NCBI RefSeq assembly: GCF_023055435.1
Contig: NW_025964372.1
Span: forward strand, 13,640,001 to 13,704,000
Length of the DNA stretch: 64,000 nucleotides
Reading direction: 5' to 3'
Source: Haliotis rufescens
Lineage: Eukaryota
Both the position numbers and the translations under genes were made by a program. This document shows positions 343 through 38,270 of the stretch, piece after piece. A model generated the notes under the pieces. That model made no database searches and was not told the origin of the DNA. It saw nothing but the letters and a program-made list of their open reading frames with translations. How positions within the stretch are numbered: position 1 is the first letter of the stretch; the number at the start of each line of letters is the position of its first letter.

Positions 343-3300
343 GTGATAAAGGCGTACCTACAGATGTTGGCCAGTCACTGGAATGCACTTCTCCCACACC
401 ACTGCTATGTTCTCCCCATGGCCTTACAGCAACTGTGGCAGAGAGAGGAATACAACAGAGGCATGTTGGACAAGGTACTGTACCCAGGGCCCCCTTCCAC
501 AAAGCGATTGGACCCGCGAAGTTCTGCATTAGAATAGGTCTACAGCAACACATGCTTGTCGTTAACGTATCCAAATTGCGTAGATCGATGCTCATGATGT
601 CAACATGATCAATCACTCGATTGTCTGGTTCAGATTTGATTATTTACAGATCGCTGTCATATAGTAATGCTGAGTGTGGCGTTAACAAACAAACAAACAA
701 AGCGATCTTAGCACTACAATGATCATACTTTAATTACTAGTGTGTTAACAATGATTAAGAATGGGAGTTATGATTGTCTTTGCACTAAGATTGCTTTGTG
801 AATGTGGCCCTGGTCCACCTAAGCATTGACTCAGGTTGACAACCCCTTGCTTGAAGTAACCAAAACCTCTGGTAATAGTGAGTTCAGGTAAGATCCAGGG
901 TTGGTTTGACTCCTAACACACATAAGGTACTAAGGTTGATATTTAGTCAGTGTATATTCAGAGCAGTTTTTGAAACATGATGATAGGGTTTTTCTTCTTA
1001 TTTGTAACATGTGTACATGGTGTAAGGTATCAATTATTTTCTAAATGTTGAAAATCAAATTTTTCTGATTATACATACATGGTATAATTTTGATAATAAT
1101 GCAAATAGTGATAATGTTATTACGAAAATATCAAGAAAAATAATTGAAACATATTTAACACTGTCAAGCAGCGAGACATATAATATAAACAAAAGTATCA
1201 CCTTGTTCCAACATGTCCATTGCTCTGCAGAGAAGGACCAAATGCACCATCACATAGTTTATTGGCAAGATTGATCCAAAACCTTTCCCCCAATACACAC
1301 ATTGGGACATTTTTGTATCCTGAGTAAGTTTTCTACCCGGTAAATATTACAGGAAATTTAGGCGAACATATTGTTTGGCCCCACTTTGAGTTCGTTATAA
1401 CCGTAGTTCATTGTACTTTTGAAGTGTCATCTTGAATGGAATGGAACGCTGCTTTCTTAGTGGCTAATGCTGCCTTCCTATTAGTCATGACTCATTTGAT
1501 TGGTCAGTCAAAGTTCATGAAAGGTCAGTCGGATGTGATGTGTAATTGGATGTCCTCAGAGGTATCAAGAACTTTTAAACTGATTTTAAAGAGATTGGGG
1601 TAATTTAAACATGTGATAAATCTTGTTTTGTTTATTTAATGCATTTATTGTTTATTGTTAAGCAAGTTTATCTCTGCAGCCATTGTAATATGCAGCTACC
1701 AGCTGATGCGTCTCACATCAAAACATGGGGCTGTGTACTCGCGGGCAGATGACTACAGGATACACTGATCAGTGATCACTGTGTCAGGTTAACAAGACTG
1801 ATTTTGCTAATTCGTTGCAAATCAGGTGTGTCGGCGTCAGAGTGCGAGACTGTCGGATTAACAAGTCATTAGTGTCGGATAAAGCCGATTGTCAGATTAA
1901 CGAGGGTCGGATTAATGAGACTTGACTGTTCAGTCAAATCAATGATTGGCCGAAACATGCAAAATGACACAGCTTATGTTTGAGGTGTCCTTGCAGAAAT
2001 GTTTGACTTTGAACAGATAATGAGATGCATAGACATACAATTGAATGAAAAAAGAAAAGTAATTGAAAGGTATGGTTGCTATGGTTACAGGAAGTACTGA
2101 CTGAATACACATGGATCCTGATGCCGTATCAGGCGTCAGACAATCATTGGGTGCTGCTGGTCGCCAATGTACAAGATGGAACAATCCGGGTGGTCAACAC
2201 AGCACCAACTAAGCATCCCGATGTGACCATTGAAACAGCTGACCACTGGAGGTGGGTAGCCACTCACACATGCTTGATTGATTAATTCCATAAACATAAT
2301 AGAAACTTTGCAACAGATATATTCATAGATCTAAAAATCCCCACAGTCACCTAGTAACCCTCCTTGAGACATTTGAGATACCAACTTAGCATGCTGAAGG
2401 AGGTGGTTTGGTCGTAATCTTTTCTAATGAAGTTTTGTGCTCACTAGACTCGACTACTGCAATAGTTTGCTAGGTATTATCTCTAAGGAGCAGAACATGG
2501 CATCAAGGATTGTGTCAAGAACCAAAAAGGACATTTGACACCTGTGCTTCTCGATGTGCACTGGCCCCCCCAGTAGGATGTTTTGACCTGCCCAATAGCC
2601 GTGATAGCATGTATAGTGTCATATTTCTCCTACAAGATAGGATGCTCTGACCTGCCCAATAGCATGTGTAGTGTCATATTTCTCCTACATGATAGAATGT
2701 TCTGACCTGCCCAATAGCATGTATAGTGTCATATTTCTCCTACATGAAAGGATGTTTTGAAATGCCCAAAAGCATGTATAGTGTCATATATCTCCTACAT
2801 GATAGGATGTTTTGACCTGCCCAATAGCATGTATAGTGTCATATTTCTCCTACATTATAAGATGTTTTGACCTGCCCAATAGCATGTATAGTGTAATATT
2901 TCTCCTACATGATAGGATGTTTTGACCTGCCCAATAGCATGTATAGTGTCATATTTCTCCTACATGATAGAGATGTTTTGACATGCCCAATAGCATGTGT
3001 AGTGTCATATTTCTCCTACATGATAAGATGTTTTGACATGCCCAATAGCATGTGTAGTGTCATATTTCTCCTACATGATAGAATGTTCTGACCTGCCCAA
3101 TAGCATGTGTAGTGTCATATTTCTCCTACATGAAAGGATGTTTTGACATGCCCAAAAGCATGTATAGTGTCATATTTCTCCTACATGATAGAATGTTTTG
3201 ACCTGCCCAATAGCATGTATAGTGTCATATTTCTCCTACATGATAGAGATGTTTTGACATGCCCAATAGCATGTGTAGTGTCATATTTCTCCTACATGAT

Positions 3301-6300
3301 AAGATGTTTTGACATGCCCAATAGCATGTGTAGTGTCATATTTCTCCTACATGATAGAATGTTTTGACCTGCCCAATAGCATGTGTAGTGTCATATTTCT
3401 CCTACATGAAAGGATGTTTTGACATGCCCAAAAGCATGTATAGTGTCATATTTCTCCTACATGATAGAATGTTTTGACCTGCCCAATAGCATGTATAGTG
3501 TCATATTTCTCCTACATGATAAGATGTTTTGACCTGCCCAATAGCATGTATAGTGTCATATTTCTCCTACATGATAGGATGTTTTGACCTGCCCAATAGC
3601 ATGTATAGTGTCATATTTCTCCTACATGATAGAATGTTTTTAGCTGCCCAATAGCATGTATAGTGTCATATTTCTCCTACATGATAGAGATGTTTTGACA
3701 TGCCCAATAGCATGTGTAGTGTCATATTTCTCCTACATGATAAGATGTTTTGACATGCCCAATAGCATGTGTAGTGTCATATTTCTCCTACATGATAGAA
3801 TGTTTTGACATGCCCAATAGCATGTGTAGTGTCATATTTCTCCTACATGATAGGATGCTCTGACCTGCCCAATAGCATGTATAGTATCATATTTCTCCTA
3901 CATGATAGAATGTTCTGACCTGCCCAATAGCATGTATAGTGTCATATTTCTCCTACATGATAGGATGTTTTGACCTGCCCAATAGCATGTATAGTGTCAT
4001 ATTTCTCCTACATGATAGGATGTTTTGACCTGCCCAATAGCATGTATAGTGTCATATTTCTCCTACATGATAGAGATGTTTTGACCTGCCCAATAGCATG
4101 TATAGTGTCATATTTCTCCTACATGATAAGATGTTTTGACCTGCCCAATAGCATGTATAGTGTCATATTTCTCCTACATGATAGGATGTTTTGACCTGCC
4201 CAATAGCATGTATAGTGTCATATTTCTCCTACATGATAGAATGTTTTGACCTGCCCAATAGCATGTATAGTGTCATATTTCTCCTACATGATAGAGATGT
4301 TTTGACATGCCCAATAGCATGTGTAGTGTCATATTTCTCCTACATGATAAGATGTTTTGACATGCCCAATAGCATGTGTAGTGTCATATTTCTCCTACAT
4401 GATAGAATGTTTTGACATGCCCAATAGCATGTGTAGTGTCATATTTCTCCTACATGATAGGATGCTCTGACCTGCCCAATAGCATGTATAGTATCATATT
4501 TCTCCTACATGATAGAATGTTCTGACCTGCCCAATAGCATGTATAGTGTCATATTTCTCCTACATGATAGGATGTTTTGACCTGCCCAATAGCATGTATA
4601 GTGTAATATTTCTCCTACATGATAGGATGTTTTGACCTGCCCAATAGCATGTATAGTGTCATATTTCTCCTACATGATAGAGATGTTTTGACATGCCCAA
4701 TAGCATGTGTAGTGTCATATTTCTCCTACATGATAAGATGTTTTGACATGCCCAATAGCATGTGTAGTGTCATATTTCTCCTACATGATAGAATGTTCTG
4801 ACCTGCCCAATAGCATGTGTAGTGTCATATTTCTCCTAAATGAAAGGATGTTTTGACATGCCCAAAAGCATGTATAGTGTCATATTTCTCCTACATGATA
4901 GAATGTTTTGACCTGCCCAATAGCATGTATAGTGTCATATTTCTCCTACATGATAGAGATGTTTTGACATGCCCAATAGCATGTGTAGTGTCATATTTCT
5001 CCTACATGATAAGATGTTTTGACATGCCCAATAGCATGTGTAGTGTCATATTTCTCCTACATGATAGAATGTTCTGACCTGCCCAATAGCATGTGTAGTG
5101 TCATATTTCTCCTACATGAAAGGATGTTTTGACATGCCCAAAAGCATGTATAGTGTCATATTTCTCCTACATGATAGAATGTTTTGACCTGCCCAATAGC
5201 ATGTATAGTGTCATATTTCTCCTACATGATAAGATGTTTTGACCTGCCCAATAGCATGTATAGTGTCATATTTCTCCTACATGATAGGATGTTTTGACCT
5301 GCCCAATAGCATGTATAGTGTCATATTTCTCCTACATGATAGAATGTTTTTAGCTGCCCAATAGCATGTATAGTGTCATATTTCTCCTACATGATAGAGA
5401 TGTTTTGACATGCCCAATAGCATGTGTAGTGTCATATTTCTCCTACATGATAAGATGTTTTGACATGCCCAATAGCATGTGTAGTGTCATATTTCTCCTA
5501 CATGATAGAATGTTTTGACATGCCCAATAGCATGTGTAGTGTCATATTTCTCCTACATGATAGGATGCTCTGACCTGCCCAATAGCATGTATAGTATCAT
5601 ATTTCTCCTACATGATAGAATGTTCTGACCTGCCCAATAGCATGTATAGTGTCATATTTCTCCTACATGATAGGATGTTTTGACCTGCCCAATAGCATGT
5701 ATAGTGTCATATTTCTCCTACATGATAAGATGTTTTTAGCTGCCCAATAGCATGTATAGTGTCATATTTCTCCTACATGATAAGATGTTTTGACCTGCCC
5801 AATAGCATGTGTAGTGTCATATTTCTCCTACATGATAGAATGTTTTGACCTGCCCAATAGCATGTATAGTGTCATATTTCTCCTACATGATAGAGATGTT
5901 TTGACATGCCCAATAGCATGTGTAGTGTCATATTTCTCCTACATGATAAGATGTTTTGACATGCCCAATAGCATGTGTAGTGTCATATTTCTCCTACATG
6001 ATAGAATGTTCTGACCTGCCCAATAGCATGTGTAGTGTCATATTTCTCCTACATGATAGGATGCACTGACCTGCCCAATAGCATGTATAGTGTCATATTT
6101 CTCCTACATGATAGAATGTTTTGACCTGCCCAATAGCATGTATAGTGTCATATTTATCCTACATGATAGGATGTTTTGACCTGCCCAATAGCATGTGTAG
6201 TGTCATATTTCTCCTACATGATAGGATGTTTTGACGTGCCCAATAGCATGTATAGTGTCATATTTCTCCTACATGATAGGATGTTCTGACTGTTAATCCC

Positions 6301-7682
6301 TATAGTGATACATATTTCTCCCATTAATTTTGATGTTTCTCCTATTTCTCCAGGAAGTACATGAAGTATCGCAGCTCCCACACTGGACAGAACCTGACAA
6401 GATGGAGCCTGGAGGACTGTCATGTGTTGGAGCAAACAGATCCACCCAGTAGCGGAGTCCATGTTTTGATGGTCAGTATTCACAGACGTCTTCACCTTCA
6501 TGCAATATGTCACAAGGTCCTCATCCGACAAATATGGAACCTAGTGGTCTTTAAAAAACATAGCTGCCTCCACTCCTTTGCGTGGAACAGAATATGTCCT
6601 CAGTATGTTTGTTAAACAAGTTGACTGAGGATGGGACTGACACCATGGGTGACCTAGCTGAGTGTGTCATTGTGCCCTGACTGCACTGATTCATTTTTTA
6701 CTATGTTGCCAGGTAGGGGTGTGTGATATAACTGGCATACCGGTATATTGCAATACAGCCGTCAGCAAGACATGCATATCAATACAGCCATTGTGTATCC
6801 ATATTTTCCGATACAGTCAAAGAAGAATTAATCTATAATTATTTAGATCATATCTACTATTTGGCATTTGGATGGACTGGGTTCATATGTAAACAGAAAA
6901 CATTTTACATTAATATTCCATATTGATGACACAATAGGTAGTCGTTTATCCATACTACCCATCTCGCAATTTGAAGTCGGGATCATTGAATGAAGTACCA
7001 TTTGAACAGAACAGATATACATAATTTGGGCCCAAATACGTACTGCAGTATGTATCGCAATACAGCTTCTGAAGAAAGGGTTATGGCCTCTGAGGTTTGA
7101 AACAGCCAGAGACAACATACAGTACAGCATTTGTCATTTTAGAATGTGTTAAAATGGTAAACATGGTAAAAGTTTCACTATCTTTGTATAATTACAAACT
7201 GCAGTCATCTAGCTGGAATATTGCTGACATCAGCGTTTAACAACAAACAATTTTATTAAGCATGTTTTTTTGTGTGAAACCATTTCGTAATCATCATGAG
7301 ATGGGAACTCATGTGAACTATTGCTAAGGTTATTTTTCTGTTGTAGGCAGCGGAGTCCATCCTACGTGGAGCATCACCTGTAGTAATGAGAAATTGTCAT
7401 GTCCGACGGTTCCGTCAGTATGCGCTCGATAAAATTCTCAATGCAGCTAACTTTGATATGCAGGAGGAGCAAATTGGTGGACGTATGTATGCGTGATTAT
7501 TAATTGATTAATCCTTTGTTGTATGCGTGACAATAACTGCAGCAAGGTTAACTTCTAGTTTACAAGTGATTACCAACGATAACAGACGATGTCTTTTTTT
7601 TAATATCATTCGCTTAATCATATTTTAGGATTATTTTTTTTCGAATTATTGTAATGTTATGAAATTTCTGGAATATCTAATC

Positions 7683-7764
<82 letters not shown>

Positions 7765-9147
7765 TTTAACCGCAAATGTGAGCCAATGCTTCCAGAGTAA
7801 TTTGGTCCAGATTAAGGGGTTTCATTGTTTATGACGAACAGCTGACATTAAATGTTTTTCAACTGTGTTTCAGTGGATGATGAGGAGGATCTTCTTGCTG
7901 AGGACAACCTGCCAACAGGAGCTGATGGTTGTCCAGAGTCCATGGACAGAGACATCTCCTCTCGGGGTGCTGGGTCCAGTCAGACATGCATGTCAGCCAG
8001 TGCTGTACCCTCCTGCAGTTCAGCCTCTGTGTCAGGGGTGCAAGGCAGAGAGTCACCAGTTGGGAGGACCTCACCCCAAAGTCCCCGGAAGAGGAGGCAC
8101 TCATCTGGAGCTTCTGTGATTGATAGTCAAGACAAGGCAATAGATTTCTCCCTGGCCCAGAGCGGGGGCATATCTGAAGATGGACAGCCCAGGAGCTCAG
8201 ATGATGGTAGAAACTGCCGGAATCGCAGTCCCACTCAGTTTGTCGGCTCGCACCCTAAAGAACATAACTATGCCAATCGAGTGTCAGCCGCACAGGGAGC
8301 AGCATTCCTGAAGCCCACCCCCCACACTATTCCAAGCGCTGACAACCTAGAGAATGTTCCAAGGCAAGTGATAAACCCTGTTCCTGTGTTCAGACCATCG
8401 GGGTATTTGTTCCAGAGTGGATATGTTCCCAAACATCCACCTCCAATGTACCCAATAGACAATTTATATCGTGGACCTGGCCCCTTCCCGAATCCCCTCT
8501 CCTCCTCAACTGTCCAGGAGAAACCATGTGATATGAGTATGCAATCTCAGATAGCTCTAGACTCTCAACCAAGCACATCCTCTCAGTATAGTTATGCGCA
8601 GATGAACTCAGAGGTTGAGGATCTAAGAGTAAACCCCTCCAGCAGCTTTAACCATCCTCATCTACCCCCTCCCTACCAGGTGTCTGAGTCAGCAGGGGCA
8701 ACTTACACCGAGCTCTCAAATGTCCGCATCTCTGATCTGCAGTCAAGCAGCCTCATCACAAGCTCACTGACCATTGCTGAAAACGAGAATCTGGTGATGA
8801 AGACAATTGTGAGGGATGCCTCCCCATCCCCGTCAGCATCATCAGATAGCAGTAACATCACCATCCATGTTGTATCACCGGCGCCAGATCAAAGACTAGC
8901 TGGTGAATCATCAGAAGATGGATTTGCTCATGTGACTCGGCCTTCTACTAGTAGAGTTGTTAGTGACCAAGATCTGTTCCGGGCATCTGGGAGTGGACAA
9001 GGATCTGGGAGTGTTGAGTCGAGGGCAGCAGGAGCTGACGGTCACTCTGCACCTCCATGTAGTGACTCTGAAGACAGTGATGGGGACAAAGAGGAAGATC
9101 TTAGTAATCTGAATATGCTTAGTGCAGTAGCATCAAAAGATGCATGA
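343..9147 (+). CDS. Ulp1/SENP-like (peptidase C48 fold) protein, 5'-partial, with Ser/Pro-rich disordered C-terminal tail; probable pseudo-protease
   Basis: Exons with GT-AG boundaries and matching phases: 343-474 (VIKAYLQML...), 2091-2251 (WILMPYQASDNHWVLLVANVQDGTIRVVNT), 6354-6471 (LEQTDPPSSGVHVLM), 7347-7482 (AAESILRG...RRFRQY), 7874-9147 (stop TGA). Motif order VINxYL / PxxxxxHWxL / QxxxxxCGVxV / R matches Ulp1-type proteases. Upstream exons lie outside the window. Confidence 0.75.
486..812. mobile_element. Small MITE-like element interrupted by a SINE
   Basis: Inverted termini cagggcccccttccacaaagcgat / attgctttgtgaatgtggccctg; the SINE inside is flanked by duplicated acaaagcgat. Confidence 0.55.
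511..700 (+). mobile_element. SINE family A (internally deleted copy)
   Basis: Shares gatcgatgctcatgat...gattatttacaga...gctgagtgtggcgttaa and the (AAAC)n tail with more than 10 other copies in the window. Confidence 0.7.
2575..6290. repeat. 55-bp minisatellite (~67 copies) in an intron, with a 1710-bp higher-order duplication
   Basis: Unit gatgttttgacctgcccaatagcatgtatagtgtcatatttctcctacatgatag; identical variant order at 2909/4619 and 3143/4853. Confidence 0.95.
7685..7764. repeat. (GATT)n microsatellite
   Basis: About 20 perfect GATT units. Confidence 0.95.
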
Positions 9148-21700: not shown

Positions 21701-24700
21701 GTGACATATTACCTGTCTACAACTACACTCTGGAGTGCACCAACTTTGCCTTTATAAAGACTACTCTCGGTAATATAAATGGGTTATGTCCTTGTGGGAA
21801 TCTGTCCACATAACATTATAAATACATGCCACGATATGGCTTGTCCAGCTTACTGACCAGAATGCTAGAACGTGCTGGGCAATGGCAGCTATCGGAGGTC
21901 CATCAGCAGGCGTGTGTTCCAGATTCAAACCACAAACTCCTTTCACGCCAATGATGAACTGAAGATAAAAAAAATAGTTGCTTTTATCAGTAAAGAACTG
22001 TCACAAATAGACACATAGAACTGGCTCATGTACCCAAGTACAGTTCATTTGAATAGCATATTATTTATATGTGCTTACATATTTATGTCATAGTAAAACA
22101 GAAGATCTTTTGAGAGACAAAACCGTGAACTCCACTTTGTGCACCTTAAGGAACTAAACCGTTATACCATACATCGTTGTATTGTCCGTTTACTTCACAG
22201 AGAAGTGTTTTAAACAGTGAGATGCAGGTACCAGACATGTAACAAAGATCAACCTGGCAAAAATCATACAACCTGGCACGAATGATATCTGCTGTCGCAT
22301 TTTGAATGCGACATTTGAAGAAGCGAACCTGCAGGATCTTGTCAAAGAACCGGTTGGCAGAGTTCCAGGAACTCCCCCCTCCATGTAACATCTGGGCGAG
22401 ACCGAGGCTCCGGGCGTGGTCACTCCCTGCCGGCGGCTGACCCTCACCGTCCACACACAACACACATATGCTCCTCTGTATGTCCTCCATTGCCGACCTG
22501 TTAGCCTGGTCTGTAAACATACGGACGCCTTTTAACGGCAATACTGGTGTTGCATATAATATATCATACTGACGCGCTTATATGGCAAACACGGGTTTAA
22601 GTAGTGTTTCTAAATGGTGATCATAGTTTTGCTGGTTTGTTTATTGTTTAACGCCGCAATACCCCAGCTATATGACGGCGGTCTGTAAATAATCGATTCT
22701 AGACCAGACAGTCCAGTGATTAATATCATGAGCATCGATCCACGCAATTGGGATCGATAACATGCATCAGCAAAGTCACCGAGTCTGACCACACGATCCC
22801 GTTAGTCGCATCTTACGACAAGCATAGTAGTCGCCTCTTACGGTAAGCATGGGTTGCTGAAGACCTATTCTACCCCGGATCTTCACAGGTCGGTGATCAT
22901 AGTACATACAAACGTCTTTAAATGGTACCGAATTCGTTTCCCAAGTTTAAAAAGCCAATTAATGAGGATCGGTTGATTTCAAAATGTGACCAGCGGTCGT
23001 TCTCATAAAGCGATCTTTGCTACGAATTTTGAAACTTTAACACAGACCTACACATCGTTGCGCTACTATCGATGTACAAGTGGACTCTGATTGATAACGT
23101 GTCACCGAATGACAACAATGCTAACTGAGACACAAAACTCCCTTGAACGGTGAACACCCTGAAGGGTTCCTATCTTCTGACGACACCCTACATTAGCTGT
23201 AAGGATGGCGGCGTAGGATGGTGAGTAAATGTTGGTCAGTCGCCTGTGTTTACAGAGTAGACAACGATAACCTCACGAACTATCCCATTGTTCCCAACAG
23301 TCGATGCCCTACTGGCTGCGACGATTGAGGACTCAAGTTATGGAGTAACTGAAAGCTTTTCTGCAAAACAGTTTCAAAATGTTACGTAAACTCCTTTGAT
23401 TTAAAACTAATAAGAACGAATGTTTTGAGTTAATTACAGCAGTTCTTGTGACGTTGTGCATCAGTTGAGGCTTACCGCTGATGATGGTGCTGTAGTTTCT
23501 GGCCCAGCTGGCCCTGTCCCTCGTGGTGAGGATGCCGATGGAGGGGACGGGCTTAGGGGACATCTCCACAATGGTCTCCAGCTGCTGGTAAAGTTGCACA
23601 GTGTCGAGAGGCCGGCTGTCCTCCCCATACACGTCCAGAGAGAAGACCTGTAGCAATGACTTTAATGATGCTCAGCGTTTGCTTGGCATCATGTCACACA
23701 GTCATGCATGTAGTTAGATATGTTGCAGAGCTGACAAACGCTATCAGACTTTTAACATGAATTCGGCTTCCATGAGAGGATCCCTACATGAATGGGCGTT
23801 TTCTTTGTCAGGTTATACATTCGGTCTTGGTCCATTTTGCAAGACATAAATCATTGGCATACCGCCAATTTCATAGTGGGAGTTAAAAACATGTTGTACC
23901 TTTCACAGTAATTTCGAGATGAAAAAAGAAAGACGGGCAAATAGTAATGCTTTCATGGATGTGTATTGTGTCTGTGTCAACCTACTTGGTTATTGTGAAG
24001 CACCGTGATGTGTCTTGGTGGGTTGGGTCCCGTTGTTGGATGTAGCACGTGGTTATCCAACTCCACCCCGGGAATACGACAGCCAGAAAGCATCTGAGAG
24101 TGTTGTGACATGCATAGCCTCTGGCCGCCCATCATGTCCACGGTTAGCGTCTGCCTACACAGTTGCGAGGGCGAAGCAAAGTTACAAAATGGCGGAGATA
24201 CCATATTATGAAAGCAGAAGAATTCCGCTTCTTGAATGTATGTTTCAGAGTACAGGTCGGTAGGCTAGACTCATTTTTTAATTGTGCGGTAACTTTGCGC
24301 CTTAAGGAAGGCCAAGAATAGGTACTTAGTGCGCTAGGACTTACCTGTCTAAAAAACTGTGTCGTCAAGTGAAGGCATCGAGGCCGCTACGCCTTACCCA
24401 TCTATAACACTGTGGTCAAGTGAAGGCATCAATGTCGCTAGGAATTACCCATCTATAACACTGTGGTCAAGTGAAGGCACCAATGTCGCTAGGAATTACC
24501 CATCTATAACACTGTGTGGTCAAATGAAGGCATCAAGGTCGCTAGGTCTTACCCATCTATAACACTGTGTTGTCAGGTGAAGGCAACAAGGTCGCTAGGT
24601 CTTACCCATCTATAACACTGTGGTAAAATGAAGGCATCAAGGTCGCTAGGTCTTACCCATCTATAACACTCTGTGGTCAAGTGAAGGCAACAAGGTCGCT

Positions 24701-27700
24701 AGGTCTTATCCGTCTATAACACTGGTCAAATGAAGGCAACAAGGTCGCTAGGTCTTATCCGTCTATAACACTGTGTGGTCAGGTGAAGGCACCAATGTCG
24801 CTAGGAATTACCCGTCTATAACACTCTGTGGTCAAGTGAAGGCAACAAGGTCGCTAGGTCTTATCCGTCTATAACACTGTGTGGTCAGGTGAAGGCAACA
24901 AGGTCGCTAGGTCTTACCCATCTATCATAGCTTTATAGTCCAGTACTGCAGCAACTACCTTGGCAGCGAATCTGAAAGCGATATGGAACACTCACAAGAA
25001 ATTGATTACTGGCAACTACCTTATTACCATACTATAAGCTAACTTACTGAATCTACATTGATTGACTAGGGACATCGAGTACCTCGCCATTTTAACACAA
25101 TAAAGAAATGGTGTAACAAGACCTGTTTACAAATAGCTAAACACGTTTACACAGCTGGCGTTAAAGATCGTTACCATGTTTCTCATCTCTATTTTGTCAT
25201 AAAATGTATTTTTCATACTTCCAAAGACAGCACAAGAAACAGTAAACTGATAAAGAGTAAACTGATAAAGAGTAAACTGTTTTGTCATCGTTTTTTAATT
25301 GTAATTCTTAAGGCGGAATGATCAAACCTCAATTGGCCTTCCTTGTCAGTATAGTCCTGTTTCGGGAAGAGAACGGCTCCATTAGAGTAGACGACAACTG
25401 GAGTTCGGGGCTTGAGGTAAGCTACCTCCCTCCACCAGTCAGACAACTTGCGAGAAAACAGAGTGCATGCAAACTTAATTTTAAAACATTTAGTTGCTAT
25501 TCCTTCAAACTGCCCAATGTTATCGCAAGATCAATAGCGAAAGACGTAAAAACAAAAACAGCTTAATGTTTTGTGCATTTGGGGCAAAAGGAAAATCGGA
25601 AAGTACCATTCATAAATTTGAATATGGTTTTCCTTATGTCAAGAAAGACTCGCTACATCCTCGATTATTCAGTGTTTGTTTGTTTGTTGTTTAACGCCAC
25701 ACTCAGCAGTATTCCAGCTATATGACGGCGGTCTGTAAATAATCGAATCTTTAATCTTTAATCGAATCGTCTTTCGAGTTAAAGTTAATTATGCATTTCC
25801 ATTGTGTTTTAGTACAATACACTGGATTAAAGGGGATGGTCTCGCCTTCATTTCGAGTATGCCCTCGGGCCCTGCTTCACCTTGTTCACGCAAACAGTTA
25901 ACCTTGTTGGTATCTACCACCTAGTTCACGCACCAAGTTAACCTTGTTGACATCCCACACCTAGTTCACGCACACAGTTAACGGTGTTGACATCCCACAC
26001 CTAGTTCACGCACACAGTTAACGGTGTTGACATCCCACAAGAAGTTCACGCACACAGTTAACGGTGTTGACATCCCGCACCTAGTTCACGCACACAGTTA
26101 ACGGTGTCGACATACCACACCTAGTTCACGCACACAGTTAACGGTATTGACACCCCACACCTAGTTCACGCACACAGTTAACGGTGTTGACACCCCACAC
26201 CTAGTTCACGCACACAGTTAACGGTATTGACACCCCACACCTAGTTCACGCACACAGTTAACGGTGTCGACATACCACACCTAGTTCACGCACACAGTTA
26301 ACGGTATTGACACCCCACACCTAGTTCACGCACACAGTTAACGGTATTGACACCCCACACCTAGTTCACGCACCAAGTTAACGGTGTTGACATCCCGCAC
26401 CTAGTTCACGCACACAGTTAACGGTGTTGACATCCCACACGAAGTTCACGCACCAAGTTAACGGTGTTGACAACCATACCTAGTTCACGCACACAGTTAA
26501 CGGTGTTGACATCCCACGCCTAGTTCACGCACACAGTTAACGGTGTTGACACCCCATACCTAGTTCACGCACACAGTTAACGGTGTTGACATCCCACGCC
26601 TAGTTCACGCGCACAGTTAACGGTGTTGACATCCCACGCCTAGTTCACGCACACAGTTAACGGTGTTGACATCCCACGCCTAGTTCACGCACACAGTTAA
26701 CGGTGTTGACATCCCATACCTAGTTCACGCACACAGTTAACGGTGTTGACATCCCACACCTAGTTCACGCACACAGTTAACGGTGTTGACATCCCACGCC
26801 TAGTTCACGCACACAGTTAACGGTGTTGACATCCCACACCTAGTTCACGCACACAGTTAACGGTGTTGACATCCCACGCCCAGTTCACGCACACAGTTAA
26901 CGGTGTTGACATCCCACACCTAGTTCACGCACACAGTTAACGGTGTTGACATCCCACGCCTAGTTCACGCACACAGTTAACGGTGTTGACATCCCACGCC
27001 TAGTTCACGCACACAGTTAACGGTGTTGACATCCCACGCCTAGTTCACGCACACAGTTAACGGTGTTGACATCCCGCACTTAGTTCACGCACACAGTTAA
27101 CGGTGTTGACATCCCACGCCTAGTTCACGCACACAGTTAACGGTGTTGACATCCCACACCTAGTTCACGCACACAGTTAACGGTGTTGACATCCCACGCC
27201 TAGTTCACGCACACAGTTAACGGTGTTGACATCCCACACCTAGTTCACGCACACAGTTAACGGTGTTGACATCCCACGCCCAGTTCACGCACACAGTTAA
27301 CGGTGTTGACATCCCACACCTAGTTCACGCACACAGTTAACGGTATTGACACCCCACACCTAGTTCACGCACACAGTTAACGGTGTTGACATACCACACC
27401 TAGTTCACGCACCAAGTTAACGGTGTTGACATCCCGCACCTAGTTCACGCACACAGTTAACGGTGTTGACATCCCACACGAAGTTCACGCACACAGTTAA
27501 CGGTGTTGACACCCCATACCTAGTTCACGCACAGTTAACGGTGTTGACATCCCACGCCTAGTTCACGCACACAGTTAACGGTGTTGACACCCCATACCTA
27601 GTTCACGCACACAGTTAACGGTGTTGACATCCCACGCCCAGTTCACGCACACAGTTAACGGTGTTGACATCCCACACCTAGTTCACGCACACAGTTAACG

Positions 27701-29026
27701 GTGTTGACATCCCACGCCTAGTTCACGCACACAGTTAACGGTGTTGACATCCCACGCCTAGTTCACGCACACAGTTAACGGTGTTGACATCCCGCACCTA
27801 GTTCACGCACACAGTTAACGGTGTTGACATCCCACGCCTAGTTCACGCACACAGTTAACGGTGTTGACATCCCTCGCCTAGTTCACGCACACAGTTAACG
27901 GTGTTGACATCCCACGCCTAGTTCACGCACACAGTTAACGGTGTTGACATCCCTCGCCTAGTTCACGCACACAGTTAACGGTGTTGACATCCCTCGCCTA
28001 GTTCACGCACACAGTTAACGGTGTCGACATCCCACGCCTAGTTCACGCACCCAGTTAACGGTGTTGACACCCCATACCTAGTTCACGCACACAGTTAACG
28101 GTGTTGACATCCCACATCTATTTCATGCACACAGTTAACCCTGCTGACACCCCACACCTAGTTCACGCACCCAGTTAACGGTGTTGGCAGCTCTCCCTTC
28201 CAGCATCAGCTGCAGCCGAGGGCCGGGGGACTGCTTGAACCTCTGCACAAGCTGACGATGAGAGAAACCTCTTAGATCTACCGACATATGCACCGGCGGT
28301 TTCATGAAGACTAGAGTTGTCAGACAAATAGAGTGAGTGACTTGGTTTTAAAGCCGCTTTGAACACTGCTCCAGTTATATCACGGCATTGTAGGCTTACG
28401 GGGGAGAAAAGCCCGAAGTCATGCAGGTCTCCTCCACTTGGGTGAAACCCATGAGCACGGGTATGGTGCTGACAAACCTAGAAACATAATCGGAGTGAAC
28501 CGGGGTTCGAGCCAACGATCATAGGTTCCTAGCGTGCCCAAGGGATGCAACTCCACCTAAGACAACGTGGCGACCCGTGCCTCCAAATAAATAGAGACTG
28601 ACCCTCCATTGTTGTCAGTCAATTTGTGAAAATGTATTTTCTACGATACAACTTGGTAAGGTCGAATAGTGTTATCATGTTGCTTTCCAGATGAAGGATA
28701 TCTCCTGTATAAAGAAAACACATTTATGGGCATTTATTTCTATAAAAATACCATCCCACAACAAACAAATGAAAATCTTTTCGAAAGAGAACTTGTTCCG
28801 AGAATACTCTATGTCCTTTGACCCTTGATTAGCGCAGAAGTTTACCTCCAGTGTGTGGCTATATTCAGCATCACTGAGCAGCGGGCGGACTGCACGCAGG
28901 TACGTCTGCAGGGTTTGTTCAATGGTGGGTACGGGGAGTCTTGGCAGCGTTTCCTGTATTCCCCTCATCGTCCCCTGTGGTGTCGTATCGACCTGTAGCT
29001 GGGGTGGCGTCCGCCCAGGCTTGTAA
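15720..29026 (-). CDS. CRAT: Carnitine O-acetyltransferase (choline/carnitine acyltransferase family); 13 exons, ~617 codons, first exon not located
   Basis: Exons 28846-29026, 28171-28251, 25328-25446, 24918-24971, 23986-24154, 23476-23647, 22329-22510, 21858-21958, 20955-21077, 19795-19917, 18463-18661, 17326-17463 and 15720-15932, all GT-AG and in phase. Motifs: LPRLPVP, NW/LSDWW, CRIPG, NRFFDK, catalytic EHTPADG, SPDGYVQ, YESGSLRRF..GRTDTIRS (TDT is carnitine-type; ChAT has VDN), GIDRHLLG, LSTSQ, GFGAVVPDGYG; C-terminal AKV. Confidence 0.92.
16325..16487 (-). mobile_element. tRNA-derived SINE family B
   Basis: A/B boxes on the - strand, GAGT-type tail, flanking ccctgtgt duplication. Confidence 0.8.
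16977..17190 (-). mobile_element. SINE family A, 5'-truncated
   Basis: Target-site duplication taaaatgtcagag; (AACC)n tail. Confidence 0.85.
17631..17800 (-). mobile_element. tRNA-derived SINE family B
   Basis: ggaatcgaacccggg B-box, (GAGT)n tail, imperfect TSD cac(a/c)gaggtc(a/t)gag. Confidence 0.8.
18733..19811. repeat. 25/26-bp minisatellite (~41 copies) made of an exon end plus 5' splice site
   Basis: - strand unit cagttggcctacttcag|gtgagtaca; the first unit contains the real donor at 19794. Confidence 0.95.
20253..20363. mobile_element. Short inverted-repeat (MITE-like) element
   Basis: ggtaagacctccgcccgtatccccctc / gaggggggatacgagcggaagtcttacc. Confidence 0.55.
22628..22891 (-). mobile_element. 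SINE family A, full length
   Basis: 12-bp TSD ggtgatcatagt on both sides. Confidence 0.88.
24330..24925. repeat. ~53-55-bp minisatellite (~11 copies) containing a 5' splice site
   Basis: - strand atagatgg|gtaagacctagcgaccttg..., repeated from the donor at 24917. Confidence 0.92.
25880..28186. repeat. 40-bp minisatellite (~57 copies) made of an exon end plus 5' splice site
   Basis: - strand caacaccgttaactg(g/t)|gtgcgtgaactaggtgtgggatgt; the first unit contains the real donor at 28170. Confidence 0.95.
28330..28585 (-). mobile_element. tRNA-derived SINE family C
   Basis: Similar to 34489-34758; (GAGT)n tail. Confidence 0.75.
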
Positions 29027-29332
29027 CTGTGTGGTAAAAGGTGAGATGGTTCAAGCTAGCAAAATGGTTCAAGTCCCATTGGTTCATTGTGTTACGACGA
29101 TTGCAGTTCTGTGATACACTGGAAACTCGGCTTACCCAATGGCGTGGCCATTAGCTGTGCATGATGCGCAAACAAGGTTTCAATTTAATCAATTGAACGG
29201 TAATTTAGTTCTGATGAGTGAGTGCGTTATGGTGTATGCCACAATCACCAATATTACAGCTATACATCGACGGCCTCTTAATGATTGAAGCAAACGGGTG
29301 GTTTATACCATGAGCAAACATCAACGATGTAC

Positions 29333-33002: not shown

Positions 33003-34420
33003 TACTGAACCGCAAAAGAAACGTCGCGATGGATAGATATATGAGAAACCTTACTTGTCCAAACACTGTAAACATAGTTTGAGACATATTAAGAAGATGA
33101 AACATGGCAAAACTGATCATCAAGGTTGAAATTAAAGTGTCAAATGTTCTCAAAGTGAAACACAACACTAGTCTCTGAGAAAATGGCATCACAATGCAGT
33201 GTCTCGTGTGTCCATGGAATGGATGAGGTGGTTGATAAAGGCCATAGGCACTTGAGCCCACACTCTGAGGAACGCCTGACGCAGTTCAGCTGCAGTTGTC
33301 GGCCTTGGTCGGACACCATTCAGCCGTCTTTGAATCTCGTCCCACAGGTGCTCAATGGGATTTAAATCGGGACTGAGGGAAGGCCACTGCATGGTTCTCA
33401 TGTCATTCTGCTGGGGGAAGTCTCGTGTTGCTCTCGCAGTGTGTGCACGGGCGTTATCATGCTGAAACTGGTTGCGATGTGCCAAATGATGTATGGCGTG
33501 TGGACTCAAGACTTGATCAATGTACAGTGCTGCTGTGACACCATTGTCTCTCCCTGGGCCGATGTTCCGGAAGACCACAGGGCCGACCCTCTGTGCAATT
33601 CCACCCCACACCATGATGCTCGGACTACCCAACGAGTCTCTCTCAACAACACAAGCCTCCGAATAACGTTCCCCACGGCGTCGCCAGACTCTCTCTCTGC
33701 TATCTGCTGTTGAGATACAGTAACGGCTCTCGTCTGAGAAGAGGACTCTCCTCCACTGCTGGTAGCGCCAATGCTGGTGCTGTGTTGCCCACTGAAGACG
33801 GTCTCGGCGATGACGTCCTCGGAATGGGTCCTCGGTGTGGCCTGTGACAGTGGAGGTGTCTGCTCGTCAATCGTCAACGCACGGTGTCCGCACTAATGTG
33901 TCGCTGGTGTGTCCCCATGGTCTGTCGAGCAGTTTCCGCAACAGTAACAAAGTGATCTTGAAGATACTGTCGCACAAACTGACGACCCTTGGTCTTCCAC
34001 TACGTGGTCGGTCATCTGTAGTGTTGGTGATCTGGTACCGTTGCTGGAGCCTGTATATGGTCCTCACGTTGACTTGAAATGCAATGGCTACTTGCCGGGC
34101 AGTTTGTCCAGCTTGCAATCGTCCAAGGGCTTGGTGTCGGCTGATTTCTTGTCAATCTTGGCATGTGTTAGCAATTAAATAACGAATTAATGTTATCCGA
34201 TCTGGGTGGATATTTATGCATTGGGTTACCATGGCCGTTGCAGTGATGCGTTTGGGCGATCGGTTTTATTGTCATCTGCTTTGTTTTTTTAATCAAATTT
34301 CATTTTTTCCGGTCAAGGTAATGTTAAATTTTAGAAACTTTGACAAAAAATACCCAGATATTTTAATGACAACTTTTCATGCAATGTTACTTGGGGTGAC
34401 GTTTTTTTTGCGGTTCAGTA
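33003..34420 (-). mobile_element. Tc1-family DNA transposon, full length, transposase frameshifted
   Basis: TIRs tactgaaccgcaaaagaaacgtc / gacgttttttttgcggttcagta flanked by TA; fragments DRPRSGRPR, MVWGGI, FQHDNARAHTA, WPSLSPDLNPIEHLW. Confidence 0.93.
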
Positions 34421-34454
34421 TATATACTAGCAAGTGTAAATCTTTTGGCATAAT

Positions 34455-35203
34455 ATACTGATCAACAAAGGTTCCTGTGACAATGAATAGTGAGTGAGTT
34501 GGGTTTAACGCCGCTTTTAACAATATTCCAGTTATATCGCGGCGTGTCAGCTTAATGTGGGAGGAAAACCCGAAGTGATGCAGGTCTCCTCCACTTCGGT
34601 GAAAACCATGAGCACGGGTATGGTGCTGGCAAACCTAGAAACATAATCGGAGCGAACCGGGATTCGAACCCATAATCATAGGTTTCTGGCGTGCCCAAGG
34701 GACGCAACTCTGCACAGCGAATCGGGGCGCCTTAGACGACTGGGCCACCCGTGCCCCCATGACATTGAATAAGATTTAATGCAAAGTTATGTTTTTACCA
34801 AATCTGAAACAATTTCGGTTTGCAACAGATAAAAGACTCCTATAAGTGTTCAAATGGTTTTATTTGCCATGTTCACTTCAGAAAATGCGTGATTTCATAA
34901 AAAAAAACATGAACATGCCAAAAAGTCAATTTACAAATCAATAGCGTGTGTGTCCACCTCTGGTTGCGATGCAAGCAACACATCTTCGTCTCATGGAATC
35001 GACCAGGCGTCGCACAAAGTCCTGTGGGATATCTGTCCATATCTGCTGGAGCATGTTTCGAAGTTCCTGGAGTGTCTCTGGAACACGTGGCTGACGTCGA
35101 AGGCGCCGATCCATCTCATCCCACATGTGCTCGATTGGTGAGAGATCAGGGAAACGAGCCGGCCAGGGGATGACATTCACGTTGTTTTGTTGGAGAGAAT
35201 CCT
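34455..35203 (-). mobile_element. Tc1 transposon 3' fragment
   Basis: WPARFPDLSPIEHMWD...SMRRRCVACIATRGGHTRY*; probable terminus tatactgatc at ~34453. Confidence 0.85.
34489..34758 (-). mobile_element. tRNA-derived SINE family C inserted in a Tc1 end
   Basis: A-box tggcccagtcg, B-box ggttcgaatcc, TSD tgaca(a/t)tgaata. Confidence 0.85.
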
Positions 35204-35251
35204 GAAAAAATATATGGTTTTGTAATCTTAGCTCAGGGCTCAGGTACACCT

Positions 35252-35562
35252 TGATAAACACTGTCACACATTGCAATCGAATTCCGATCTATTTAGTGAT
35301 CGAAAACCGGACAAGAACTGAGTAAAGTCGTCTGTATGCCTGGCAAAAGCGTCTTTCCGAGGCAAGGGCGTTAACGGACTCTAAAAGTCTAGTTTCCACT
35401 CTTGCTAAACTAGGCTGGAATTCCGGAGTTACACTTTCGCTGGACTAACGAGACTATGCATAGCACAATCAAAATCGCGTAACGAACTAGACATCCGGTT
35501 CGTAAACAACGTGGATTTCAACGTGCAGATTTCGGTTGACTGTAGGATTTTCAAAGCATGTG
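35252..35562. repeat. Dispersed non-coding repeat, copy 2
   Basis: High similarity to 31172-31455. Confidence 0.8.
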
Positions 35563-35864
35563 TGCCGTTAATTGGGCGTCGACAGACATTTTGTAAATCT
35601 TTTCATGGTCTTAATCAATTTGCTCAAGTGAGTTGATGCACTTCGCGGGGTAAGACCCATTTTATTACGAAGACAATCTTGATTATCGAACATACTCTAT
35701 TGACGGGGTGCCGCCATTGTGTTTGAATCAAATGCAAGTGATATGATAGGTGGAATCTAATTGGTCAACAAGAGAGACATACAAGGGACATAACCCGTAT
35801 TCGCCATTGGTGGCGCTACGATCGAATCACGAAATTGCAGCCTAGTTCGGCAAGGGTGGGGGTC

Positions 35865-36213
35865 CTCGGTTGATTGGGGTCTCGGGCTGATATGGGTGTC
35901 TTGGGCTGATAAGGGGGTCTTGGGCTGATATGGGGGTCTCGGGCTGACATGGGGGTCTTGGGCTGATATTGGGGTCTCAGGTTGGGTTGATATGGGGGGT
36001 CTCGGGTTGGGTTGATATTTGGTTCTTGGGTTGACAAAGGGATCTCGGGCTGACATGGGGGTCTCGGGCTGATATGGTGGTCTCGGGCTGATATGGGGGT
36101 TTGGGGGTGACATGGGGGTCTTGGGCTGATATTGGGGTCTCGGGCTGACATGGGGGTCTCGGGCTGATATGGTGGTCTCGGGCTGATATGGGGGTCTCGG
36201 GCTGATATGGGGT
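35865..36213. repeat. ~19-bp G-rich minisatellite
   Basis: Unit tcgggctgatatgggggtc. Confidence 0.9.
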
Positions 36214-36990
36214 ATCACATGAAAACTGCCAAAAAATAACCTCTGAGTATCATACTACACCCTGATTGCCCGATAAAGGTATAGTCACCAATTTGATAGT
36301 CAGCCACAAGTCTTCCATTCACAACATGTGTGCTCAGAATTGAACACAATTCCAATGGTGTTTTTTCAAAGTTATTTATAAATTTGTCACATGAATATCT
36401 TTCCATGTCAACTTTTCTGAAGAAATCTATTAAGTAATGAGTTCCTTCAACATGGTAAATATCAGTGTTCTCCATATAGTCTAGCATCACACTGGTTCTA
36501 CCGTTCATCGCATCCTTGTACAAAAGAACCTTAGCGCTACGCACGACTGTCGCACGGCTATGTTTGGTAAGGGAGTTACCATAACCTTAGCACCCAGCCG
36601 TTTCACGACAGCCTTTTAGCGCTACGACCTCCTAACCACTACACACAGTTTACGACCCTCTTTAGGGTCTCATTACGACCGTTTCACGAAAGCATCTTAA
36701 TGTTGTTAAGTCAATCTTAAACGAGTAAATCGCGAGACTTACGAGACAGCAACGGGACCCGAGACAGCAACGGGACCCGGAAGTGAATGGGCACCTGTCA
36801 GTTTGATCTGCACATGAACAATTGCCAATTGTGTAAAACCGATGCCAATCACCCAGAAGAATTGTGCAAGCACCTGGAAAATAAGTTGTCTCACAATCTG
36901 ACATCACTGGCAACATTAGAAATTACGTAAAATTAACATTAGTCATTCCAGAATGCTTTGATAAAGGAATCCAAAACTAACGTGTATATA

Positions 36991-37320
36991 CGAGGGGCGT
37001 TCAATAAGTTTAGCAACTTTAATATTAGACCAAGTCGCAGAATATCTTTTGCACTATTACTTCTCAATATAATCTCCATTCACCTGAAAACACTTATTCC
37101 ATTTGTCTTTCAAGCTTTTAATACCACTTTTATAGAAATCCGCAGATTGGCCCTCTAACCACGCCTCTGTGGCAGCCTTTATGTCCTCGTAATCATGGAA
37201 GCATCTTCCACGTAGGGCAGATTTCATTTGCCGGAACAGGAAATAGTCACTTGGGGCTAAGTCTGGACTGTCGGATGGGTGATTTAACTGTTCGAACCCA
37301 GACTTAGCCCCCAATGACTA
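36991..37320 (-). mobile_element. mariner (DD34D) 3' fragment with terminal inverted repeat
   Basis: SPDLAPSDYFLF...WNKCFQVNGDYIEK*; TIR ta|cgaggggcgttcaataag, same as at 50613. Confidence 0.9.
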
Positions 37321-37489
37321 TTTCTGCACACTGTGGAACAACAGGCCTAGGGCATGTAGGATAGTTTTGGTTAGAAAAAGTGACTCATCCACAACATATT
37401 GCATTGATTTTACACGATTAAATCATGAATGACATGACAGTTGGAGACAGTTTTCCCAAGAGCTGATGACAGTTTGGTGTCTCTCGGTG

Positions 37490-38270
37490 ACACGGGACTC
37501 GTCAGTAAACAGTACATTTCTCCACCTTGCACGTGCCCATCTAACCCTCTGTTGGCACCAAAGCAGACGGTCCGCCAGATGACGTGGGGTCAATATATGA
37601 CGTCGAACAGGTCTTCGTGCAAAAAGTCCAGCCTCCCTCAGTCTGTTGCGTACCGTTTGATCTGATATGCTGCGTACCCAAGGGATCTGTGTGGTTGTAG
37701 ACGTGGCTGTAGTAGTGCGGTCTCGGAGGTGTCGCAGCCGGATGTATCGATCTTGTGCTTGGGTTGTCACCCTTGGTCTTCCTGACCTTGGTCTGTCGTC
37801 AACTCTGTTGGTGTTGTTGTATCGGGTCAACAGTGCGGAGATTGTCTGTCTTGATACACCAAAGTGCCTGGCCACTTCTTGCTGAGTTGCTCCAGCTTGT
37901 GATCTCCCAATGGCGTTGTTCCGTTGAGCTGCATTCAGTCTTGGCATACTGTCACCGGCCTCTACTGCCGTTATAAGGACTGTATGAACAGCCGTTGATG
38001 TGGATTTTTATGCCCATTCAGCAGAGGGGCCTGCATGCCTAAATGCAGGATCCTGTGCTGCACGTTTTTTAAAGGCGGTTGCGTTTGGATGAAGCTGTAA
38101 AATTGATCCCCAAACGCTACGTTCATGTGCTTTGCATGTGTTTTCGTGAATTATAGACACATCATCTTTCTGTTTGACTTATTTGGTTCTCATTTAATGT
38201 AATTATTTTAGATATTTGGCAAAAAGTGGTTTTACATCTATGTAAAGTTTCTTTTTTTTAAGAGAATATA
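37490..38270 (-). mobile_element. Tc1 transposon 5' fragment (paired-like HTH to the first catalytic Asp)
   Basis: MPRL...VARHFGVSRQTI...DRPRSGRPRVTT..QDRYIR...WRNVLFTDESR. Confidence 0.9.

What the first reader, a model, noticed from the sequence alone, without database searches (positions are those of the whole stretch)
2091..6471. Ulp1/SENP-fold domain with catalytic Cys replaced by Ser (and Asp by Asn)
Seen: the His motif (NHWVLL) and oxyanion Gln (EQTD) are present, but the expected DCG/SCG reads SSGVHVL (AGC at 6451-6453, one base from TGC). The usual YDS reads VNT. Established: C48 proteases use a His-Asp-Cys triad, and Cys-to-Ser mutants act as SUMO substrate traps. The reading frame and splice sites are intact. 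Inference: a natural pseudo-protease or ubiquitin-like-modifier reader, possibly domesticated from a transposon-borne Ulp1 domain.
Basis: partly seen in the sequence, partly recalled or inferred. Interest (0 to 1): 0.7.

Follow-up and report, generated by a model that had tools for sequence, protein, structure and literature searches.

The report
Abalone DNA-binding protein with dead SUMO-protease
An intact, spliced abalone gene joins a predicted DNA-binding domain to a SUMO-protease-fold domain that has lost its cutting cysteine and also its predicted SUMO-gripping residues in four abalone species, so it is likely a transposon-derived nuclear regulator using the dead protease as a scaffold rather than a SUMO trap.

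Summary
The Cys-to-Ser change is real and fixed. The region is exons 4-5 of a 7-exon, 1248-aa Haliotis rufescens gene (XP_046376319.2) whose splice joints appear in RNA-like contigs. Ser is kept in H. cracherodii, H. rubra and H. asinina (about 36 My); the H. asinina model has also lost the His. The fold is Ulp1/SENP (Z 24.7 to SENP1). Two first-reader points fail. Asn is no sign of death: 13 of 18 Cys-keeping relatives also have it. A SUMO trap is unlikely: the Trp lid and the Asp that Ulp1 C580S needs to bind SUMO are both lost, while 16 of 16 relatives read keep both. Upstream lies a CG-1-like DNA-binding domain, 97-98% conserved. The protease exons share four intron positions with a Mutator transposase gene in this genome. 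The gene is the catalytically dead, ankyrin-less member of a CG-1/C48/ankyrin family. The scan noted that family before (e1-9944838) and a fungal Cys-to-Ser Ulp1 (e1-7578179). Best reading: a domesticated nuclear regulator with a scaffold pseudo-protease. Function is untested, and orthologues were found only in Haliotis.

The parts
343..474 (+). Exon 3 of 7 (VIKAYL...MLDK), first helix of the C48 domain. Exons 1-2 lie upstream of the window (L017:4362-4524 and L017:7834-9596; G000:C594:13634362-13634524 and 13637834-13639596). They encode the CG-1-like domain (aa 1-135), a disordered spacer with a PKKRR basic motif, a helical domain (aa 487-615) and the degenerate lid motif (A638, A641).
   Evidence: the joined CDS equals P0001; RNA-like contig covers it
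2091..2251 (+). Exon 4: His705 (2145-2147) and Asn722 (2196-2198)
   Evidence: contig X18 record 28
2604..6290 (.). 55-bp satellite, 66.9 copies, inside the intron between exons 4 and 5; not coding
   Evidence: one X18 contig runs from exon 4 into exon 5 without it
6354..6471 (+). Exon 5: Gln767 (6433-6435), Pro-Pro in the oxyanion loop, Ser773 in place of the catalytic Cys (AGC 6451-6453)
7347..7482 (+). Exon 6: last helices of the C48 domain
   Evidence: GT..AG joints 6470>7346 and 7482>7874 in X13 and X18, depth 0 in DNA runs X14 and X15
7874..9147 (+). Exon 7 coding part: about 424-aa Ser/Pro-rich tail ending in TGA; no Pfam family and no ankyrin repeats, unlike the paralogues

Best explanation
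This is an intact, spliced abalone gene whose Ulp1/SENP-fold domain lacks its catalytic cysteine and its predicted SUMO-gripping residues, and it likely works as a transposon-derived nuclear DNA-binding regulator in which the dead protease domain likely serves as a folded scaffold or partner-binding module. Shown: gene structure, splicing, fold, the Ser and lid changes in four species, shared introns with a Mutator-type transposase gene, and an active, ankyrin-bearing sister gene 430 kb away. Inferred history: a CG-1 + C48 cassette left a Mutator transposase, lost the transposase core and gained an ankyrin tail, founding a Haliotis family. One duplicate then lost the ankyrins and its active site, changed fast (stem 0.9 changes per column) and has since changed slowly (branches under 0.05). 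Inferred mechanism: the CG-1-like domain binds specific DNA sites after import by the conserved PKKRR motif. The helical plus pseudo-C48 unit and the disordered arms recruit partners, without removing SUMO.
For: Fold: AlphaFold2 model pLDDT 87.3; VIA-align SENP1 Z 24.7, rmsd 2.2, 209 aligned; Ulp1 Z 23.9, rmsd 2.4, 209 aligned; Foldseek SENP3/SENP2 E 5.5e-10 and 3.2e-9. Dead: Ser in 4 of 4 species, His also replaced by Asp in the H. asinina model; 18 of 18 paralogue loci read keep Cys. Substrate site eroded: W>A/V and D>A in all four species, against 16 of 16 paralogue loci keeping both. Variable positions across orthologues: 5 of 19 in active-site loops vs 15 of 159 in the core (Fisher p 0.044, post hoc). 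Constraint: versus H. asinina, CG-1 132/135, C48 182/200, spacer 244/297, tail 341/426. A neutral simulation at 0.104 substitutions per site gives a mean identity of 0.80, maxima of 0.92 (CG-1) and 0.87 (C48), and 0 of 1000 runs without a stop (divergence from bioRxiv 10.1101/2024.09.16.613283, passages). DNA-binding domain: Atlas top three hits CG-1 clusters, 0.87-0.89; close family members pass the Pfam CG-1 cut-off (P0012 30.9 bits, P0013 25); model pLDDT above 90 over aa 1-120, best structural matches WOPR Z 8.2, NAC 7.2, GCM 7.0. Origin: four intron positions and phases shared with the C301 MULE gene. Tree: sister to the active gene at C594:13.2 Mb, support 95/95; an ankyrin array lies 7-10 kb downstream of that gene's last C48 exon.
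Against: No binding, localisation or expression level was measured. The RNA label of the runs is a guess by the tool, and contigs give no level or tissue. Pfam does not detect CG-1 in P0001 or P0008 themselves, the Atlas score is under 0.9 (a lead only), and the fold Z scores are middling. C48 constraint depends on the assumed divergence: at 0.08 the observed 0.91 is only just above the 99th percentile, and at 0.05 it lies within the neutral range. The helical domain (111/129) is not above the neutral range. Both C48-domain differences listed in organisms B and C are non-synonymous (C762F, R786C). The tree tool flags the sister pairing as a meeting of long branches. The C301 transposase carries an ALS2CR8-type, not CG-1, front end, so it is a relative and not the direct donor.
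Confidence: 0.55

Rival explanations
1. Vestigial passenger: the gene works only through its CG-1-like domain and disordered arms. The C48 domain is kept merely because it must fold, and is slowly eroding.
For: CG-1 is far more conserved (97-98%) than C48 (91-92%); extra active-site losses in H. asinina; both listed C48 differences in organisms B and C change the residue.
Against: The domain has survived whole, with four exons and intact splice sites, for about 36 My, and is above the neutral range at the divergence that fits spacer and tail.
Confidence: 0.13
2. Decoy or brake on its own family: it occupies the same DNA sites or partners as the active CG-1/C48/ankyrin paralogues but can neither sense through ankyrins nor remove SUMO, so it dampens them.
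For: Shares CG-1-like, helical and C48 domains with at least 45 other exon matches in the genome; ankyrin arrays follow the C48 exons in 9 paralogue loci fetched but not here.
Against: Its CG-1 is only about 30-52% identical to the paralogues', so site sharing is not assured. The paralogues seem to diverge fast (P0012 vs its H. rubra relative P0019: 217 of 345 identical, orthology unproven) while this gene is stable.
Confidence: 0.12
3. SUMO or NEDD8 reader: a natural version of the engineered Cys-to-Ser substrate trap that binds modified proteins without cutting.
For: Ulp1/SENP fold intact; Gln767, and in three species His705 and the following Trp, are retained; Ulp1 C580S traps SUMO conjugates (PMC3216068, passages).
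Against: The lid Trp and the Asp aligned with the SUMO salt-bridge residue are lost in all four species. D451N abolishes the trap in yeast. The oxyanion loop reads Pro-Pro or Pro-Leu. The putative substrate face is more variable than the core, 13 of 61 vs 15 of 159 (p 0.024, post hoc).
Confidence: 0.12
4. Active enzyme using Ser773 as nucleophile with His705 and Asn722.
For: Ser, His, Asn and Gln occupy the triad and oxyanion positions in three species.
Against: His is Asp in the H. asinina model while Ser is kept (one gene model, not checked in reads). Cys-to-Ser inactivates plant ESD4 (PMC6759571, passages) and yeast Ulp1.
Confidence: 0.03
5. Decaying pseudogene or assembly error.
For: The family turns over fast, and some copies carry stops.
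Against: An open frame of 1248 codons in H. rufescens and H. cracherodii and 1239 in H. asinina; spliced contigs in two studies; 0 of 1000 neutral simulations stay open. H. rubra is annotated as two adjacent models, cause not checked.
Confidence: 0.03

Closest known systems
Ulp1/SENP SUMO proteases (MEROPS C48, Pfam PF02902, clan CE): human SENP1/2/3/5, yeast Ulp1, DEN1/SENP8
   Same: Fold (Z 21-25), Pfam match, order and spacing of His, third residue, Gln and nucleophile position
   Different: Ser for Cys, no lid Trp, no salt-bridge Asp, His lost in one species; fused to a CG-1-like domain and a helical domain with no clear structural match
Engineered substrate traps Ulp1 C580S and SENP2 C548S
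   Same: The same Cys-to-Ser substitution
   Different: The yeast trap needs D451 (PMC3216068, passages); the aligned residue here is Ala in four species
Mutator/MULE and Ginger1 transposases with C-terminal Ulp1 domains (PMC2836005, passages; P0031, P0040; C301 locus)
   Same: C48 domain with four shared intron positions (C301); N-terminal domain homologous to that of MULE + C48 + PHD proteins
   Different: No DDE core, SWIM or PHD; no gene-specific inverted repeats found; orthologous across Haliotis; protease dead
CAMTA transcription factors (CG-1 domain), and transposase-derived factors generally (PMC13538051, passages)
   Same: N-terminal CG-1-like domain with a WRKY/GCM/NAC-like sheet; the paralogues also carry ankyrin repeats
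   Different: No TIG, ankyrin or IQ match in this protein; the genome has separate true CAMTA genes on C212
Pseudo-DUBs and inactive papain-like scaffolds (PAN2, USP39/SNUT2, menin, XPC; PMC10919355 and PMC10318531, passages)
   Same: Catalytically dead cysteine-protease fold kept in a likely nuclear protein
   Different: Those belong to other families; the passages read name no natural C48 pseudo-enzyme

Membership tests
Active Ulp1/SENP (C48) protease | Clan CE fold and Peptidase_C48 profile | tested here: met
Active Ulp1/SENP (C48) protease | Catalytic Cys | tested here: not met
   Ser773 in 4 of 4 species
Active Ulp1/SENP (C48) protease | Catalytic His | tested here: inconclusive
   Present in 3 of 4 species; Asp in the H. 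asinina model, not checked in reads
Active Ulp1/SENP (C48) protease | Third triad residue Asp | tested here: not met
   Asn722; but Asn in 13 of 18, Asp in 4 of 18 and Ser in 1 of 18 Cys-keeping paralogue loci, so not diagnostic
SUMO-binding trap (Ulp1 C580S type) | Trp lid and Asp of the WLND motif | tested here: not met
   A638 (Val in H. rubra and H. asinina) and A641 align with SENP2 W and D. Equating that Asp with Ulp1 D451 rests on the N450/D451 passages of PMC3216068 plus recalled motif numbering; the lid role of this Trp is recalled, with a general statement in PMC10919355.
SUMO-binding trap (Ulp1 C580S type) | Measured binding to SUMO or NEDD8 | not testable with these tools
   needs a binding assay
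Mutator/MULE transposase | DDE (MULE) catalytic domain and SWIM finger | tested here: not met
   Pfam finds only C48 in P0001; five MULE-type or SWIM-bearing proteins hit only the N-terminal exons by tblastn
Mutator/MULE transposase | Terminal inverted repeats around the gene | tested here: inconclusive
   14 inverted pairs between 14 kb upstream and 12 kb downstream; all are dispersed repeats hitting 20-38 of 72 loci. Old repeats could have decayed.
Mutator/MULE transposase | Common descent of the C48 domain | tested here: met
   four intron positions and phases shared with the C301 MULE/SWIM/C48/PHD gene
CAMTA / CG-1 factors | CG-1 domain | tested here: inconclusive
   No direct Pfam hit; indirect support
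CAMTA / CG-1 factors | TIG, ankyrin and IQ domains | tested here: not met
   none in P0001 at E up to 10; no ankyrin match in the window
Domesticated pseudo-enzyme | Expressed, orthologous and constrained despite lost catalysis | tested here: met
   codon-level dN/dS to distant species was not possible

The most novel reading that the evidence does not exclude
Abalones have built from a Mutator transposase a family of DNA-binding SUMO proteases with variable ankyrin sensors, resembling CAMTA factors with a built-in protease. This gene is the family's conserved, catalytically dead, sensor-less regulator: a natural pseudo-SENP that sets the activity of the rest at shared DNA sites.
Probability: 0.15. 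Interest if true: 0.75.

Novelty: new variant of a known kind. Interest (0 to 1): 0.47.

Why it matters
Pseudo-enzymes are well known among deubiquitinases, but the ten paper searches here turned up no natural, conserved pseudo-enzyme of the SENP/Ulp1 family. This one comes with a natural control set in one genome: a transposase that carries the domain, active domesticated paralogues, and a dead copy kept for about 36 My. That makes it testable what a transposon-borne Ulp1 domain does once domesticated, and what a C48 fold can do without catalysis. The limit is that it seems confined to Haliotis and has no phenotype.

Tried and rejected
Homodimer prediction of aa 480-815: no answer, no evidence either way. 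No complex with SUMO was predicted. Three word-index protein searches returned only the protein itself and two H. rubra models. The full HMMER search with the N-terminal half gave 106 proteins; of the 10 looked up by name, those with both domains were all Haliotis. No orthologue outside the genus was found, but this does not show absence. phmmer of the whole protein against PDB sequences found nothing at E up to 1; a profile was needed. The helical domain (aa 487-615) has no clear structural match (best Z under 5), but it was not folded alone. SNP lists are truncated to the best-supported rows; of the 27 coding differences listed, 17 are synonymous and 10 are not, too incomplete for dN/dS. Inverted-repeat searches gave only dispersed or local repeats. 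Paper searches with no hit or nothing relevant in the listing: CG-1 domain + Ulp1 + transposon (0 papers); inactive + Ulp1-like + peptidase domain + transposon + catalytic cysteine; Haliotis + sentrin + ankyrin + expansion; CG-1 + MULE + transposase + Peptidase_C48; pseudoprotease + SENP + Ulp1. Subscription papers and supplements were not searched. Rejected: Asn as an inactivating change; the 4.4-kb span as coding.
Full report
OBSERVATION. The intron between them holds a 55-bp satellite of 66.9 copies. The first exon alone passes the Pfam Peptidase_C48 cut-off.

THE GENE. The window is G000:C594:13640001-13704000. From the window and the stretch upstream I built a 7-exon model. Its translation is identical to P0001, named by the sources as Haliotis rufescens XP_046376319.2, uncharacterized protein LOC124149033, 1248 aa. 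Contigs of runs guessed to be RNA support the splicing. X13 and X18 show GT..AG joints 6470>7346 and 7482>7874 that have depth 0 in DNA runs X14 and X15. An X18 contig of 3967 letters covers exons 2 (part), 3 and 4 and exons 5, 6 and 7 with adjoining record coordinates, and a second X18 contig joins exon 1 to exon 2. Contigs give no level, tissue or strand.

THE SERINE IS FIXED. X13 and X18 have 0 other letters over 6352-6470. X14 and X15 (organisms B and C, about 1% diverged) list no difference at 6451-6453, although 95 rows were not shown. Protein models of H. cracherodii (P0002), H. rubra (P0005/P0007, annotated as two adjacent genes with P0006) and H. asinina (P0008) all keep Ser, and H. 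asinina has Asp in place of the His. East and West Pacific abalones split about 36.4 My ago (bioRxiv 10.1101/2024.09.16.613283, passages read).

FOLD. An AlphaFold2 model of aa 480-815 has pLDDT 87.3. It matches SENP1 at Z 24.7 (rmsd 2.2, 209 aligned) and Ulp1 at Z 23.9; Foldseek's top ten rows are all SENPs. The helical part ahead of it has no clear match.

PARALOGUES AS CONTROLS. Exon 4 has 46 matches in the genome, 45 besides this gene, most of them in tandem on C594:41.6-41.9 Mb, C6 and C72. I read the nucleophile exon at 18 other loci (17 of those 45 plus one found): 18 of 18 have Cys. The third residue is Asn in 13, Asp in 4 and Ser in 1 of the 18, so Asn is a family trait and not a lesion. 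The motif aligned with SENP2 'WLNDEVI' keeps both W and D in 16 of 16 loci where it was covered. Here it reads A-I-D-A-Q-V, with Val for the Trp in H. rubra and H. asinina. In yeast Ulp1, D451 forms the salt bridge to SUMO, and D451N abolishes the SUMO interaction of the C580S trap (PMC3216068, passages). Equating A641 with D451 uses those passages and recalled numbering. Across the four orthologues the active-site loops vary at 5 of 19 positions and the core at 15 of 159 (p 0.044, post hoc and small). The site has thus lost more than its nucleophile, which argues against a SUMO trap.

CONSTRAINT. Against H. asinina: aa 1-135 132/135, spacer 244/297, helical 111/129, C48 182/200, tail 341/426. 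The paper's mutation rate, generation time and date give about 0.104 neutral changes per site. At that value 1000 simulations give a mean identity of 0.80 (matching spacer and tail), maxima of 0.92 for aa 1-135 and 0.87 for C48, and none without a stop. At lower divergence the C48 excess weakens or vanishes, and the helical domain is never clearly above neutral. Of 27 listed coding differences in the laid runs 17 are synonymous, but the two in the C48 domain are not.

N-TERMINUS AND ORIGIN. Residues 1-140 retrieve CG-1 clusters from the Atlas (0.87-0.89, a lead only). A full HMMER search with the H. rubra N-terminal half gave 106 proteins. I scanned 41 of them plus P0008 against Pfam: many carry CG-1, several carry MULE, and two (P0031, P0040) are MULE + C48 + PHD. 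Pfam does not detect CG-1 in P0001 directly. The model of this domain is confident and best matches WOPR, SSR4, NAC and GCM domains at Z 7-8. The five closest full-length relatives (P0012-P0016) carry C48 and long ankyrin arrays, four of them with a Pfam CG-1 hit; the three looked up by name are Haliotis. Ankyrin arrays follow the C48 exons in eight fetched loci and in the sister locus, but not in this window. A locus on C301 encodes ALS2CR8, MULE/RNase H, SWIM, an active C48 and a PHD-like end. Its C48 exons break at the same four positions and phases as ours. Ulp1 domains on Mutator and Ginger1 transposases are known (PMC2836005, passages), as are Ulp1-ankyrin and Ulp1-MULE fusions in rice (PMC12903978, passages). 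In a 21-row tree the four orthologues form a clade with a 0.9 stem and short tips, sister (95/95, flagged for long branches) to an active gene 430 kb away on the same contig. No gene-specific inverted repeats were found.

MECHANISM. Shown: an expressed-type, conserved gene with a dead C48 fold behind a highly conserved CG-1-like domain and a conserved PKKRR motif. Inferred: nuclear DNA binding through CG-1, with the helical plus pseudo-C48 unit as a scaffold (0.55). Rivals: vestigial passenger (0.13), decoy for the active paralogues (0.12), SUMO/NEDD8 reader (0.12), Ser enzyme (0.03), pseudogene (0.03).

KNOWN AND NEW. It has the C48 fold but fails membership as an active protease, as a transposase and as a CAMTA. 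It works, if the inference holds, like the dead-protease scaffolds PAN2, USP39 or menin (PMC10318531 and PMC10919355, passages) on a transposase-derived DNA-binding domain (PMC13538051, passages). Ten paper searches turned up no description of this gene, of a CG-1/C48 fusion or of a natural conserved SENP pseudo-enzyme. For most hits I saw only the listing; subscription papers and supplements were not seen. The scan earlier noted the protease-ankyrin family in this genome (e1-9944838) and a fungal Cys-to-Ser Ulp1 family (e1-7578179). Verdict: real, a new variant of a known kind, interest 0.47.

Noticed in passing
G000:C212:299555-805249; L071-L072: Seven near-identical CG-1 exon matches spaced about 70-140 kb apart; the one fetched lies in a full CAMTA-like gene. 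Either a tandem CAMTA array or an assembly artefact.
   Followed up: partly
G000:C594:41.62-41.93 Mb, C6 (11 kb-996 kb), C72: About 37 tandem copies of the CG-1-like/C48/ankyrin gene; the 10 read keep His and Cys, nine with Asn and one with Ser as third residue. C6 and C72 may be alternative haplotypes of the same array.
   Followed up: partly
L045-L031 (G000:C301:1734001-1754000); similar match on C357: Intron-rich Mutator-type gene: ALS2CR8, MULE/RNase H, SWIM, active C48, PHD-like end. Terminal repeats and copy number not checked.
   Followed up: partly
G000:C594:13.19-13.23 Mb (L067, L039, L027, L028, L038): Active sister gene with W/D lid and His-Asp-Cys, followed by a long array of near-identical ankyrin repeats; a Tc1-like transposase frame sits in its first intron.
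   Followed up: partly
window 22146-29055 (-), 36215-36586 (-): Exons resembling a carnitine/choline acyltransferase by eye (recalled resemblance, not scanned).
   Followed up: no
window 58684-59529 (-) and 55761-56123 (-): Exons resembling a Cys-loop (nicotinic-type) receptor subunit by eye (not scanned).
   Followed up: no
window 33189-38007, 40173-41774, 50756-51520: Remnants resembling Tc1/mariner transposases and a Gypsy-type integrase by eye; several long satellites at 18.7, 24.3, 25.9, 51.5, 56.6 and 59.9 kb.
   Followed up: no
L034:1-4833 (G000:C27): Cluster of long open frames resembling Polinton/Maverick-type genes next to a paralogue (by eye, observed only).
   Followed up: no
P0009, P0010, P0017, P0018, P0020: Proteins with tandem CG-1 domains and no transposase core; P0009 is from the annelid Capitella. 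Possibly further domestications of the same domain.
   Followed up: no
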